Below are positions 20,623 through 22,862 of a stretch of 64,000 nt of DNA, piece by piece. Both the position numbers and the translations under genes were made by a program. Below the pieces are notes generated by a model. The model was not told where the DNA came from, did no database searches, and saw only the letters and a list, made by a program, of their open reading frames with translations. The DNA is from a virus: the IMG/VR virus record IMGVR_UViG_3300049811_000333, positions 16,633 to 80,632 of that record; one strand, 5' to 3'. Each line of letters opens with the position of its first letter. Position 1 is the first letter of the stretch.

Positions 20623-20676
20623 GCGAGCCTCCGTTGTGAGGTTGCTAGGCGGCACGCGAGGTGCCGCCACGGAACA

Positions 20677-20970
20677 TCACAGGCCGTGGTCAGAGCCGAA
20701 CCGTTCGCGGCCGGGGTCCACGCAGGTCACTTCGAAGTCGATGGGGGCTTCCACGAAGAGAGCCGACGCGATGGCGTTCGCGATGTCACTGGAGCGCGCC
20801 ATGCGGGCGGCTTGGATTTTCTCCACGATCTCGTAGAGGCGCGCGAACTCGCGGGTGCAGGTGGCTGCGAGGTAGTCATCGTCCGGCACGTAGTACGCCA
20901 CCATGGCCGCATCGAGCGCGTAGCGGCCAGTGACGAAGAGATCGAGGCACTCGGCCTGCGTGAGCTTCAT
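20677..20970 (-). CDS. hypothetical protein
   Basis: ORF coupled to upstream gene. Confidence 0.5.
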   Translation of the reverse strand: MKLTQAECLDLFVTGRYALDAAMVAYYVPDDDYLAATCTREFARLYEIVEKIQAARMARSSDIANAIASALFVEAPIDFEVTCVDPGRERFGSDHGL

Positions 20971-20973
20971 GGA

Positions 20974-21267
20974 TCACCTGTAGAAGGTTGCTGCGGGATA
21001 GAGTTCAAGGAGCTTGGCCTTCGCACCGCCGCGCCAAGGCGCGCGCAGGAACCCGTCAATGGTTCCCTCCGCGTTGCGATACCAGTAGAGAGGCTGTCCG
21101 AGGCCCCAGTAGGCCCCGCCTTCGTCGTATCCGCCGGAGTCAATCGCGACCCGCGAGAGGTAGAGCTTGTGCGGGGCGAGGGTATCAACCGGATCGGAAT
21201 AGGGGTTCGGTCGCGACGGCCGCCCCATGGGGGCGCCGTAGCGGCAATCCACGCGAGGGAGCTTCAT
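20974..21267 (-). CDS. conserved phage early protein
   Basis: YGAPMGR...GGYDEGGAYWG.G.PLY. Confidence 0.7.
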   Translation of the reverse strand: MKLPRVDCRYGAPMGRPSRPNPYSDPVDTLAPHKLYLSRVAIDSGGYDEGGAYWGLGQPLYWYRNAEGTIDGFLRAPWRGGAKAKLLELYPAATFYR

Positions 21268-21573
21268 GCGTCACCCGTAGATTTGTTTGAGGATGGCGGC
21301 ACCAAGTGCCCGCAAGCGGGCGTTGTTGGTGTTGAGGTACTGGTTGGCGCGTTGCTCCGCGCCTCCAGTGCCAAGGGCCGCGACAACGGCCTTGGCTTCT
21401 TCATCGATCTGGCTCATGGCGAGACCAGGGCCAAGATGGCGATCACGAGCCAGAAGATGACCGTGAACGACACCATGGCGGAGATCGTGAACAGCGCGAG
21501 CCGCACGAGGACTTCGTACATGGGAACCTCCTGAGGTTGCTACGCGGCACCGCGAGGATGCCGCGAGGGAACG

Positions 21574-21876
21574 TCAGTGCTTAGGCTTCCACCCCCAGGG
21601 CGAGCGGGACTTGATCTCGCAATCGAGATCGCCGCCGCACACGGTCCAAGGGACGATGTCGCATTGGTCTTCGTCGCCACCCACGCAGTTGCAGGTGTCG
21701 CCGGGTGTGTCGTCGTCGTCGCAAGGGACGATGTCCTGAGGGAAGCGCGGGCCCGGAAGGCCGCGCAGGTCCACCACGTTCAGCGAGAGTTCGTCCGCGG
21801 CGCGGTAGTCCATGGCCCCGGCCGGGCTCGCGAGCGCGAGCGCGGCAAGGGCGAGAGCCTTACTGTTCCAGCGCAT
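21574..21876 (-). CDS. secreted Cys/Asp-rich protein
   Basis: Signal peptide ALALAALALASPAGA; 6 Cys. Confidence 0.5.
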   Translation of the reverse strand: MRWNSKALALAALALASPAGAMDYRAADELSLNVVDLRGLPGPRFPQDIVPCDDDDTPGDTCNCVGGDEDQCDIVPWTVCGGDLDCEIKSRSPWGWKPKH

Positions 21877-22862
21877 GACGCGGAACCGGATGGAACACGC
21901 GGTCGCCGGGGATGTAGGCGGGGGTGGGGGCGAGGCGCCAGAACTTGATGCGCCAGCGTCCGATGGCGAGAGTGTGAAGCCCGCCGATGCGAGTGTGCTT
22001 AAACATAGCTAAGCCTCCGCAAGAGGCGCACACCCTACGTGTGCGCCCGTCGCGAGGGCCGCGCTGTGGTGGTTTGCCAAGAGACGCGCCGTCCGGTCGT
22101 GCACCTAAGCACCGATCACCCCTGCCTCCCAAAGTCAGACGGGCAGGCCGTCGCGGGACTTACCGCCTTGGCAAATTGTTTTTCGCGAGGGCTTCCGGGG
22201 TTTGGACCCCCGGAGCCGCCCGGATCACGCGAGAGAGGAACCGGCGAGCATGGCCTTGGATTGGAGGTCGATACCCCGGACGAGGCTGTCGTATTCCTCC
22301 CGCGAGATGAGGCCGTCCATGTACCGCTCATCGAGGCGGTCCATCTGGCGTTCAACCCAGAGTTCGACGAGGTGTTCGCGCATGGCAATAACTCCCGAAA
22401 GGTGAGCGCGAGAGGCGCCCACGTCGCGAGAGTCGGTCAGGTCGCGAGAGTTGGCCCCCTCCGGGGTCTCAATCCGGAGGGGCGCGAGATCAGAGTTGTC
22501 GCGAGGCGATGTAGTCCGCCGTCTCCAGGTTAAGGCTCTGGATCAGGCTGGGGTCGCCATCGTCGGGGGAAAATTCGAGGTCAATCAGCTTGGCGAGGTC
22601 GTCCCCATGGATGCGCTGGGCATACATGAAGGTCTCGGCCGATTTGTAGTCGGCGAACTCCTGGAAGTCGCCCGTGATCCCCCGAGGGGTGACATGGACG
22701 ACCGAGACATGGTAAGGCATGGGTGTGCTCCACATGATGCGCGCCCGTAGTGGGCGCGCACGACGTGAGGCGCACGCGCGCGTAGTGGGACCCGAGGCGC
22801 CGAGGTGCCGCCGGGAAAATTCGGATTTGTCGATTTTCAGAACCCGGAAGTTCCGGGCACCG

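What the first reader, a model, noticed from the sequence alone, without database searches (positions are those of the whole stretch)
20655..22505. Polar array of CGCGAG directly beside the GAG-free zone
Seen: 17 + strand CGCGAG copies by manual count (about 20655, 21152, 21252, 21495, 21551, 21562, 21829, 21835, 22051, 22184, 22228, 22301, 22407, 22425, 22443, 22483, 22500) versus about 2 in the opposite orientation. Density rises toward the boundary near 22.8 kb and then drops to zero. Some copies sit in intergenic hairpin loops (GGCAC-GCGAG-GTGCC at 20651-20665). Inference: an oriented DNA signal (Chi/KOPS-like loading or stop sites, a staged-injection boundary, a protein-coating array or a decoy sink). 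The sharp switch from enriched to forbidden suggests both patterns respond to one factor.
Basis: partly seen in the sequence, partly recalled or inferred. Interest (0 to 1): 0.7.

Follow-up and report, generated by a model that had tools for sequence, protein, structure and literature searches.

The report
Polar CTCGCG word in phage operon
A six-letter word is genuinely piled up in one orientation in a 2-kb early operon of an uncultured temperate phage, but it follows the direction of transcription, about half the copies are largely explained by codon choice, and the rest sit in duplicated hairpin spacers between small genes, so it looks like a local RNA-level regulatory repeat and not a Chi/KOPS-type DNA signal.

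Summary
It is the most clustered oriented hexamer of the 80.6-kb phage genome.

The genes here run on the minus strand, so the word is CTCGCG in the mRNA sense. Its true core is CTCGC (29 sense, 3 antisense), usually preceded by pyrimidines.

The array is a composite:
- **Coding copies (8):** mostly Leu-Ala codons. They are only weakly above a synonymous-shuffle null (8 vs 4.4, p≈0.05).
- **Spacer copies (9):** these lie in 430 bp of four intercistronic spacers (0.6 expected). The spacers are built from duplicated cassettes: two homologous long stem-loops with the word in the loop, two post-stop hairpins followed by YCTCGCGA, an 18-bp tandem triplet, and one hairpin that sequesters a Shine-Dalgarno site.

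Several copies pair with the next gene's ribosome-binding site. Native spacers occlude ribosome-binding sites modestly more than shuffled ones.

The feature is confined to one operon. The only usable relative lacks it but has its own repeated hairpin cassettes.

The link to the adjacent GAG-free zone through one factor is not supported. The zone bans the CT dinucleotide broadly, the array is specific for CTCGC(G), and only 1.9 hexamer copies would be expected in the zone.

This scan has seen repeated phage promoter/hairpin cassettes before on other DNA (T1-like phages).

Verdict: a real, lineage-specific variant of phage intergenic regulatory repeats, with function unproven.

The parts
20623..22722 (-). 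Operon of nine small, mostly ORFan genes on the minus strand (22720-22490, 22383-22225, 22006-21860, 21876-21574, 21521-21414, 21417-21271, 21267-20974, 20970-20677, then 20622-20257 DUF7448). It carries all 17 sense CTCGCG copies and 29 sense CTCGC copies.
   Evidence: RBS plus ATG and translations. Codon-usage LLR is +0.25 to +0.42 for the minus genes and negative for the + strand shadow ORFs. Word counts. DUF7448.
22407..22451 (-). 18-bp tandem repeat (2.5 units) in spacer IG1, holding copies 22407, 22425 and 22443. In the sense RNA, copy 22425 pairs with the SD (CGGGAG) of gene 22383 and copy 22443 pairs with GCGCGA just after its AUG.
   Evidence: TRF period 18, 85% matches. Fold z -3.0. 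Pair probabilities.
22455..22489 (-). Post-stop hairpin of IG1 (CCCCUCCGG / CCGGAGGGG). It is preceded by UGA-U-CUCGCG (copy 22483) and followed by ..CUCUCGCGAC. It has no U tract.
   Evidence: Sequence, fold, alignment with the IG2a hairpin. Not called as a terminator.
22184..22233 (-). Post-stop hairpin of IG2a (22190-22217), flanked by CUCGCG-UGA (copy 22228, the last two codons of gene 22383) and by CCCUCGCGAA (copy 22184).
   Evidence: Sequence, folds, alignment A3 at 75%.
22004..22068 (-). Strong hairpin (-40.7 kcal/mol) in which GGCC-C-UCGCGA (copy 22051) pairs with UUGCGG-A-GGCU, the Shine-Dalgarno site of gene 22006. The AUG is also paired.
   Evidence: Inverted repeat I1. Fold z -4.3, 0 of 200 shuffles as stable. 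RBS accessibility 0.25-0.26.
21829..21844 (-). (CGCGAG)x2.7 microrepeat encoding the LALA part of the signal-peptide-like N-terminus (ALALAALALAS) of the 100-aa Cys-rich protein. Holds copies 21829 and 21835 and the opposite-strand copy 21827.
   Evidence: TRF and phase-0 Leu-Ala codons. The G001 homologue (57% identity) lacks these codons.
21522..21573 (-). Spacer IG3: a 19-bp stem-loop running from the upstream stop codon to the RBS. CCUCGCGG occurs twice, 11 nt apart (copies 21562 in the 5' arm, 21551 in the loop), and is followed by UAGCAACCUCA-GGAGG.
   Evidence: I12, fold, 83% identity to IG4. Punpaired is 0.80 for the loop copy.
20623..20676 (-). Spacer IG4: the homologous 21-bp stem-loop with loop CUCGC (copy 20655), followed by UAGCAACCUCA..GGAGG-CUCGC-AUG of the DUF7448 gene.
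   Evidence: I5, fold z -2.1, alignment A2. Punpaired 0.83.
22723..22800 (-). 5' leader of the operon: a -43 kcal/mol hairpin that sequesters the SD of the first gene without using the CTCGCG word. The first sense-strand CUC after the GAG-free zone lies here.
   Evidence: I2, fold z -2.7, spacer-shuffle z -1.67.
22852..23002 (.). Three tandem ~39-bp operator units, each with ATCAC-N6-GTGAT: the probable control region of the operon.
   Evidence: D1 family, sequence. The same palindrome recurs at 24179-24194 and 25381-25396 and in relative G001.
23055..23082 (-). Strong intrinsic terminator (12-bp stem plus T9) ending the upstream early unit. It separates the GAG-free early genes from the array operon.
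   Evidence: and sequence.

Best explanation
The array is a transcript-polar repeat of one host-RNAP-transcribed, repressor-controlled early operon of a temperate-type siphophage. In mRNA sense the word is (Y)CUCGC(G).

About half of the hexamer copies are coding. They are mostly Leu-Ala (CTC-GCN) and largely follow from the phage's strong CTC preference and the Leu/Ala-rich small membrane or secreted proteins encoded here.

The other half are the real signal. They are a shared module of duplicated, structured intercistronic cassettes that fill every spacer of the operon. The pyrimidine-rich 5' part (CCUC/CUCUC) acts as an anti-Shine-Dalgarno strand, and the CGCG part acts as a G-C clamp. The cassettes therefore fold over, or sit just upstream of, the next gene's ribosome-binding site, starting at or right after the previous stop codon.

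The most likely function is post-transcriptional: translational coupling or damping, and possibly processing or stabilisation of the polycistronic early mRNA. A sequence-specific RNA-binding factor may read the loop-exposed copies.

Shown: polarity with transcription, spacer enrichment, cassette homology, and predicted pairing to SD/AUG. Inferred: that the pairing matters in vivo, and any trans-acting reader.
For: - Coding strand is minus. The phage has no RNAP of its own. It encodes an HTH-S24 repressor, RecT, a PDDEXK exonuclease, SSB, DnaB and Prim-Pol.
- Spacers hold 9 copies in 430 bp vs 0.58 +/- 0.74 expected, with a maximum of 5 in 3000 shuffles. Elsewhere there is about 1 copy in ~6.9 kb of true same-strand spacers.
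- The spacers are non-coding.
- The core word CTCGC is 29 sense vs 3 antisense, with 4.7 expected. CTCTCGC is 8 vs 0.3 and CCTCGC is 11 vs 1.9.
- In spacers 9 of 10 CTCGC copies are the full hexamer; in CDS only 8 of 19 are.
- Cassette homology: IG3/IG4 83% identical, IG1/IG2a 75%; 18-bp tandem repeat.
- Folds: 21999-22075 z -4.3, IG1 z -3.0, IG2a z -2.7, IG4 z -2.1; leader z -2.7.
- Pair probabilities: copy 22425 pairs with the SD and 22443 with the AUG region of gene 22383; 22051 with the SD of gene 22006; 21252 with the SD of its own gene.
- Native spacers occlude the RBS more than composition-matched shuffled spacers in 5 of 5 genes (z -0.15 to -2.14; my Stouffer combination is about -2.6).
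- Relative G001 has its own pair of hairpin cassettes upstream of small early genes (80% identity over 100 nt). The architecture recurs, the word does not.
Against: - RBS accessibility in this operon is only marginally lower than in the other 139 genes (0.39 vs 0.44, p=0.085). Two of the five spacer-shuffle tests are null.
- The word occupies mixed structural contexts: loops, stems and hairpin flanks. Its mean unpaired probability is about the same as the transcript average. So structure alone does not explain why this particular word recurs.
- Coding copies still exceed codon nulls: CTCGC 19 vs 12.9 (p=0.009); CTCGCG 8 vs 2.5 with genome-wide codon usage (p=0.003).
- No close relative exists, so there is no covariation or conservation test.
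- No transcription start or processing data are available.
Confidence: 0.42

Rival explanations
1. No dedicated function. The cluster would be a neutral by-product of local duplication (tandem slippage, cassette copying, gene-boundary recombination) in a fast-turnover ORFan region, added to codon usage (CTC-GCN) in Leu/Ala-rich small proteins.
For: - At least 7 of 17 copies sit in recognisable duplications.
- Coding copies are near the synonymous-shuffle expectation (8 vs 4.4, p=0.046).
- The word is absent from the corresponding region of the only relative (portal 83% aa identity), which shares just one of the operon's proteins.
- Oriented hexamer clusters of similar nominal extremity occur in 3 of 19 other phage loci.
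Against: - Those three comparators are plain tandem repeats of longer units. Here the word recurs with unrelated flanks in at least 5-6 non-homologous spacer positions, where about 0.3-0.6 are expected.
- Polarity is 29:3 for the core.
- The only other intergenic sense copy in the genome is also placed 1 nt after a stop codon.
Confidence: 0.27
2. DNA-level, orientation-dependent protein-binding sites. A phage or host protein would bind asymmetric CTCGCG sites and act as a roadblock or regulator of elongation through this operon, as stoperators do.
For: - Strict co-orientation with transcription and preference for short intergenic spaces. Both are hallmarks of stoperators (PMC9283540).
- Direct-repeat spacings of 11 bp (21551/21562) and 18 bp (22407-22443) would suit cooperative binding.
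- The same word in different structural contexts favours a sequence reader.
Against: - The site carries only about 6-8 informative bases, against 13 for stoperators. It is confined to one operon, not spread over the genome.
- Spacings are irregular (6 to 500 bp).
- The phage's repressor is an ordinary HTH-S24 type, and the obvious operators are the palindromes ATCAC-N6-GTGAT.
- No candidate asymmetric-site binder was found. The upstream early proteins are ORFans without folds or families.
Confidence: 0.18
3. Promoter or promoter-terminator cassettes (PeSL or T1-type) that give each small gene its own start. CTCGCG would then be part of an unrecognised promoter or activator site.
For: - Small ORFan genes are separated by repeated stem-loop cassettes, as in T4-type hyperplastic regions (PMC2839356, PMC4122927) and the T1-like cassettes seen earlier in this scan.
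- A conserved TAGCAA lies 26-27 nt upstream of the ATG in IG3 and IG4.
Against: - No sigma-70-like promoter was found on the minus strand anywhere in 19.8-25.7 kb.
- The distance from the word to the ATG varies from 29 to 105 nt.
- The TAGCAACCTCA cassette has only two copies.
- There is no AT-rich -10 element.
Confidence: 0.08
4. Chi/KOPS-like tracking signal, staged-injection stop, or restriction/defence decoy acting on DNA.
For: Polarity, and proximity to a compositionally odd early segment and a long non-coding region.
Against: - Not genome-wide. Outside the array the orientation bias is reversed (24 + vs 61 -).
- Orientation tracks the local transcription unit.
- The array lies 7-8 kb from the terminase genes.
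- Enrichment is concentrated in spacers tied to stop codons and ribosome-binding sites.
Confidence: 0.05

Closest known systems
Start-associated sequences and extended SAS of Cluster K mycobacteriophages (PMC3203893)
   Same: A short asymmetric repeat, almost all copies in one orientation with transcription, lying in intergenic space ahead of genes. It partly overlaps or complements ribosome-binding sequences, about half the copies are accompanied by imperfect inverted repeats, and the function is unproven but thought to be translational.
   Different: SAS is a 13-bp word at a fixed place immediately upstream of start codons, present 11-19 times across the whole genome and conserved across subclusters. 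Here the word is 6-8 nt, lies 29-105 nt from starts (often next to the preceding stop), is confined to one 2-kb operon, also occurs in codons, and is not conserved in the one relative.
Stoperators of Cluster A mycobacteriophages (PMC9283540)
   Same: Asymmetric sites in short intergenic spaces whose orientation correlates strictly with the direction of transcription.
   Different: Stoperators are 13-mers with more than 20 copies throughout the genome, bound by a monomeric two-domain immunity repressor. Here the word is shorter and local, and the phage has a CI/LexA-type HTH-S24 repressor with palindromic candidate operators.
PeSL promoter-stem-loop cassettes of T4-type phages (PMC2839356, PMC4122927) and the 21-nt intergenic repeats of T1-like phages
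   Same: Repeated stem-loop cassettes flank small, fast-evolving ORFan early genes. The cassettes are copied within the region. A relative has the same layout with other sequences.
   Different: No recognisable promoter hexamers. The shared element is a 6-8-nt word used in several different hairpin types, not one conserved composite cassette.
Intercistronic RNase III stem-loops of the phage T7 early mRNA, and RBS-occluding hairpins used for translational coupling (established knowledge, not tested here)
   Same: Irregular stems of 19-21 bp lie exactly between a stop codon and the next RBS (IG3, IG4). Other hairpins pair the SD/AUG of the next cistron.
   Different: No cleavage or coupling data. 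Occlusion is statistically modest. Those systems are not defined by a recurring short word.

Membership tests
Chi / KOPS-type polar DNA signals | Strand-skewed over-representation across the whole chromosome or replichore, co-oriented with replication or with DNA ends | tested here: not met
   17 of 41 + copies lie in 2.3% of the genome. The rest is 24 + vs 61 -. CDS elsewhere is 33 sense vs 36 antisense.
Chi / KOPS-type polar DNA signals | Recognition by RecBCD/AddAB or FtsK of the host | not testable with these tools
   Host unknown. No prophage relatives found in 185,579 species genomes.
Stoperators (Cluster A mycobacteriophages) | Asymmetric site oriented with transcription, in short intergenic spaces | tested here: met
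   29:3 sense:antisense for the core. 9 hexamer copies in 430 bp of spacers.
Stoperators (Cluster A mycobacteriophages) | A 13-bp site with more than 20 copies distributed throughout the genome | tested here: not met
   Informative length is about 6-8 nt. Copies are confined to one 2.1-kb operon.
Stoperators (Cluster A mycobacteriophages) | Cognate monomeric repressor with an HTH plus a stoperator domain | tested here: not met
   The only repressor-like protein is an HTH_3 + Peptidase_S24 type. The early proteins next to the array match no family.
SAS/ESAS (Cluster K mycobacteriophages) | Fixed position immediately upstream of start codons | tested here: not met
   Distances from the word to the ATG are 29, 35, 38, 46, 47, 50, 65, 105 and 178 nt (from the coordinates).
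SAS/ESAS (Cluster K mycobacteriophages) | One orientation, associated imperfect inverted repeats | tested here: met
PeSL / T1-type promoter-hairpin cassettes | Stem-loop cassettes repeated between small variable early genes | tested here: met
   IG3/IG4 83% identical, IG1/IG2a 75%. The genes are ORFans. G001 has its own cassettes.
PeSL / T1-type promoter-hairpin cassettes | Recognisable early promoter (-35/-10 or activator box at fixed spacing to -10) inside each cassette | tested here: not met
   No sigma-70-like site on the minus strand in 19.8-25.7 kb. Promoters of an unknown high-GC host could be missed.
Intrinsic terminators | GC-rich hairpin followed by a U tract | tested here: not met
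   The post-stop hairpins at 22455-22483 and 22190-22217 lack U tracts. Only 23055-23082 qualifies.
Known RNA families (Rfam) | Match to a curated covariance model | tested here: not met
   Only one tRNA hit in 19.5-25.8 kb at E<=1.

The most novel reading that the evidence does not exclude
The CUC-free early segment, the CUCGC(G)-laden next operon and the three tRNA-Glu(CUC)-like genes directly downstream in the same transcription direction (anticodon loops UUCUCGG / CCUCUCGG / CCGCUCGG) could all reflect one RNA-targeting factor. A candidate is a host or phage endoribonuclease or anticodon nuclease that recognises CUC in exposed loops. On this reading the first transcripts escape by containing no CUC at all, while the next operon displays CUCGC(G) in hairpin loops and beside stop codons, either as decoys or as programmed cleavage or binding sites that time its expression.
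Probability: 0.06. Interest if true: 0.85.

Novelty: new variant of a known kind. Interest (0 to 1): 0.36.

Why it matters
If the spacer copies are functional, this would be a compact example of how a temperate phage tunes a block of small accessory early genes after transcription. It would do so with a very short reusable RNA word (anti-SD plus GC clamp) copied between cistrons. It would also add a Gram-negative-type, high-GC counterpart to the still unexplained SAS/ESAS repeats of mycobacteriophages.

In practice the result redirects attention. The array is not a Chi/KOPS or injection signal. The truly anomalous feature of this locus is the neighbouring 2.7-kb strand-specific ban on CT/CTC, which needs its own explanation.

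Tried and rejected
- **Close relatives for a conservation or covariation test: none found.**
  - blastn against phages found nothing.
  - Protein anchors in IMG/VR: DUF7448 and the 577-aa protein gave nothing. The portal gave one 35-kb fragment at 83% aa identity that shares only one operon protein and no array.
  - Among 5.8 billion proteins the best hit to the anchor protein is 63% identical.
  - GTDB genomes gave nothing. Metagenome contigs reach at most 68% TerL identity on short contigs.
- **Longer motif:** GTGCCGCNTAGCA and TAGCAACCTCA occur only in the two homologous cassettes.
- **sigma-54-like reading of GGCAC-N5-GTGC in IG4:** rejected by eye. The paralogous IG3 has the wrong spacing, and the match follows from hairpin symmetry.
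- **Rfam:** no family matched.
- **Upstream early proteins as readers:** no Pfam or PHROG family. The ESM Atlas gave no usable hit and a low-confidence model.
- **A c4-like antisense loop:** there is a hairpin at 22998-23045 with sense CGCGAG in its loop. It lies between a terminator and the operators, is a single copy, folds only weakly (z -1.8), and may not be transcribed with the operon.
- **SECIS or readthrough reading of 'UGA + hairpin':** the downstream frame closes after 6 codons.
- **First partition-function run:** failed for lack of rescaling and was repeated.
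Full report
**Context**

The window is bases 16633-80632 of a single 80,632-bp, 61% GC virus contig with overlapping ends. It encodes:
- TerL and portal. The portal is at most 39% identical to those of cultured Xanthomonas, Stenotrophomonas and Pseudomonas siphophages.
- An HTH-Peptidase_S24 repressor, RecT, a PDDEXK exonuclease, SSB, DnaB, Prim-Pol, HNH endonucleases and a weak integrase-like protein.
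- No RNA polymerase.

So this is a temperate-type siphophage transcribed by host RNAP. The leftward (minus-strand) gene arm runs from about 28.84 kb through the region of interest.

**Observation**

All 17 + strand CGCGAG positions and the two opposite copies are exactly as reported.
- The hexamer is unremarkable over the whole window (92 vs 86.7 expected).
- Locally, 17 of the genome's 41 + strand copies lie in 1,851 bp (0.94 expected). This is the most extreme local cluster among all oriented hexamers.
- Local dinucleotide shuffles give 2.9 +/- 1.6, with a maximum of 9 in 2000.
- In a panel of 19 distant phage loci, 3 had clusters of similar nominal extremity. All three are simple tandem repeats of longer units: 28-nt iterons, a coding PAPAPA hexanucleotide repeat, and a 13-bp tandem. 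The present array is a 6-8-nt word at irregular spacing with unrelated flanks.

**Strand and genes**

RBS plus ATG patterns, codon-usage log-likelihood (+0.25 to +0.42 for minus-strand genes, negative for the long + strand shadow ORFs), the DUF7448 hit and a homologue in a relative all place the genes on the minus strand.

The word in mRNA sense is therefore CTCGCG. The unit is an operon of nine small genes (22720 down to 20257), nearly all ORFans. It lies downstream of a strong intrinsic terminator (23055-23082) and three tandem operator units with ATCAC-N6-GTGAT (22852-23002).

**What the enriched word really is**

Compared with the sense strands of the rest of the genome, the best-defined core is CTCGC:
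- CTCGC: 29 copies vs 4.7 expected, with only 3 antisense.
- CTCGCG: 17 vs 1.5.
- There is a pyrimidine-rich 5' flank: CTCTCGC 8 vs 0.3; CCTCGC 11 vs 1.9.

**Coding versus spacer copies**

Eight hexamer copies are in CDS, in all three phases. Four are Leu-Ala CTC-GCG.
- Synonymous shuffling within these genes gives 4.4 +/- 1.8 (p=0.046).
- Resampling codons from genome-wide usage gives 2.5 (p=0.003).
- For the pentamer, 19 observed against 12.9 (p=0.009) or 9.6 (p=0.0003).
- CTC is 60-65% of Leu codons in this phage.

The coding copies are thus largely, but not wholly, a codon and amino-acid effect.

Nine copies are in the four spacers (430 bp).
- Dinucleotide shuffles give 0.58 +/- 0.74, with a maximum of 5 in 3000.
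- Elsewhere in the genome there is about one sense copy in ~6.9 kb of genuine same-strand spacers. That copy sits 1 nt after a stop codon.
- In spacers 9 of 10 CTCGC copies are the full hexamer, against 8 of 19 in CDS.
- The spacers are not hidden N-terminal extensions.

**Anatomy of the spacers**

1. **IG4 (20623-20676) and IG3 (21522-21573).** These are 83% identical cassettes. Each is a 19-21-bp irregular stem-loop running from the upstream UGA to just before the SD, with CUCGC(G) in the loop (unpaired probability 0.8), followed by UAGCAACCUCA and GGAGG.

2. **IG1 and IG2a.** Each starts with a GC-rich hairpin right after the stop codon, without a U tract. The hairpin is preceded by CUCGCG at the stop (UGA-U-CUCGCG; CUCGCG-UGA) and followed by YCUCGCGA.

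3. **IG1 tandem triplet.** IG1 also holds an 18-bp tandem triplet. Its copies pair with the SD (CGGGAG) and with the bases just after the AUG of gene 22383.

4. **IG2b.** This is a -40.7 kcal/mol hairpin (z -4.3) in which CC-C-UCGCGA pairs with UUGCGG-A-GG, the SD of gene 22006.

5. **Operon leader.** It has a further SD-sequestering hairpin (z -2.7) that does not use the word.

Two more copies (21829, 21835) are a hexanucleotide microrepeat encoding LALA in a signal-peptide-like N-terminus.

**Tests of the RNA-structure reading**

- RBS accessibility in the operon is 0.39 vs 0.44 for the other 139 genes (p=0.085).
- Shuffling only the spacer while keeping the SD, AUG and coding start fixed makes the RBS more accessible in all five cases (z -1.67, -0.45, -2.14, -1.39, -0.15). 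My Stouffer combination is about -2.6.

This is modest support. The word is not consistently paired or unpaired. Structure alone therefore does not explain the recurrence of this word, and a sequence-specific reader on RNA or DNA remains possible.

**Relatives**

No close relative exists in any collection searched.

The one usable relative is G001, a 35-kb fragment with 83% portal identity.
- It is collinear only rightwards of 25.76 kb.
- It shares one operon protein (57% identity) and has no CGCGAG array.
- It does share ATCAC-N6-GTGAT operators.
- It has its own pair of about 100-nt hairpin cassettes upstream of small early genes (80% identity).

The architecture is conserved, but the word is lineage-specific.

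**Relation to the GAG-free zone**

The zone is real: there is no + strand GAG from 22805 to 25483, the most extreme trinucleotide gap in the genome. The 1,419 non-coding bases within it hold 0 copies against about 32 expected.

The single-factor link is not supported, for these reasons:
- The zone depletes the sense-strand CT dinucleotide in general (odds 0.33; CTC 0/60, CCT 9/59, GCT 14/50, TCT 5/39, CTG 17/58).
- Its three genes have atypical codon usage, with Leu CTC 0 of 21.
- The array is not generally CTC-rich: CTC not followed by GC is 50 vs 42.5. It is specifically CTCGC(G)-rich.
- Only 1.9 hexamer copies are expected in the zone.
- The two features belong to different transcription units separated by a terminator and operators.

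A single factor is therefore not supported, but it cannot be excluded.

**Comparison with known systems**

The closest known systems are listed below.
- **SAS/ESAS repeats of Cluster K mycobacteriophages:** oriented, start-associated, with inverted repeats, function unknown.
- **Stoperators:** oriented intergenic 13-mers bound by a special repressor.
- **PeSL and T1-type cassettes:** promoter plus stem-loop between ORFan early genes.
- **T7-type intercistronic RNase III hairpins:** from established knowledge, not tested here.

The array fails defining features of each: site length, genome-wide spread, fixed distance to starts, recognisable promoters. I therefore file it as a new variant of phage intergenic regulatory repeats and not as a member of any one family.

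**Verdict**

The array is real and statistically strong, polar with transcription, local and lineage-specific. It is partly codon-driven and partly a reusable word in duplicated structured spacers.

My estimates for its function:
- RNA-level control of translation or processing of the early polycistronic mRNA: about 0.4.
- Neutral duplication plus composition: about 0.27.
- A DNA-level oriented binding site: about 0.18.
- Chi/KOPS, injection or decoy readings are disfavoured.

Noticed in passing
window 22805-25483: The GAG-free zone is real (2,682-bp gap, the most extreme trinucleotide gap in the genome). It is really a sense-strand CT-dinucleotide depletion (odds 0.33; CTC 0 vs 60 expected; CCT 9/59; TCT 5/39). 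It covers 1,419 non-coding bases as well as three genes with atypical codon usage, and it is bracketed by ATCAC-N6-GTGAT palindromes. This is stranger than the array and remains unexplained.
   Followed up: partly
window 22852-23002, 24179-24194, 25381-25396; L010 about 3570-3640, 3810-3830, 5385-5402, 5952-5968: ATCAC-N6-GTGAT palindromes: three in tandem 39-bp units upstream of the array operon, and others in the early region. They recur in relative G001. They are probable operators of a conserved dimeric regulator, perhaps the HTH-S24 repressor at L011:10503-11921.
   Followed up: partly
window 43443-43482: The only other intergenic sense CTCGCG in the genome sits 1 nt after the UGA of gene 42639-43445 and 27 nt before the ATG of gene 43480-44451. 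This is the same just-after-the-stop placement as in IG1 and IG3.
   Followed up: partly
window 23357-24055 (minus strand): The 232-aa early ORFan begins MASHNRQARRNRRAGTVTGW, an arginine-rich N-terminus followed by Trp. It is superficially like the RNA-binding ARM of N-type antiterminators. No family or usable structural match was found.
   Followed up: partly
window 22998-23045: A hairpin or inverted repeat (CAACGCAA / TTGCGTTG, plus a third TTGCGTT direct copy) whose 8-nt centre carries the only nearby sense-strand CGCGAG, the complement of the array word. It lies between the terminator and the triple operator.
   Followed up: partly
window 19734-20249 (minus strand): Three tRNA-like genes lie directly downstream of the operon. 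ARAGORN calls two with abnormal anticodon loops, and Rfam calls one tRNA. Their loops read UUCUCGG, CCUCUCGG and CCGCUCGG, sharing CUCG with the array word.
   Followed up: partly
window 22007-22224: An unusually long (218 nt) structured spacer with a long-range stem UUUGCCAAG/CUUGGCAAA enclosing about 100 nt, and a half-operator word GCACCGATCAC at 22109-22119. Fold z is -2.5 (sense) and -3.6 (antisense). It could hold a small RNA.
   Followed up: partly
window 25845-26120 (+ strand): A 91-aa gene with a signal-peptide-like N-terminus is inverted inside the minus-strand arm. Its upstream region (25761-25849) is 80% identical in relative G001, so it looks like a moron-type insertion.
   Followed up: no
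window 24700-25480: About 0.8 kb of non-coding DNA with an AT-rich stretch, CTGAT-type short repeats and a duplicated GCACTTGCACTTGCAACA word (24283-24300 and 25486-25503). Relative G001 has a comparable GATCA-repeat region (L010 3000-3500). This is a candidate early promoter hub, origin or genome end.
   Followed up: no
L011 about 14350-16200 (window about -2280): The second most clustered oriented hexamer in the genome is CCCCCC (10 of 17 copies in 1.85 kb). Not examined.
   Followed up: no
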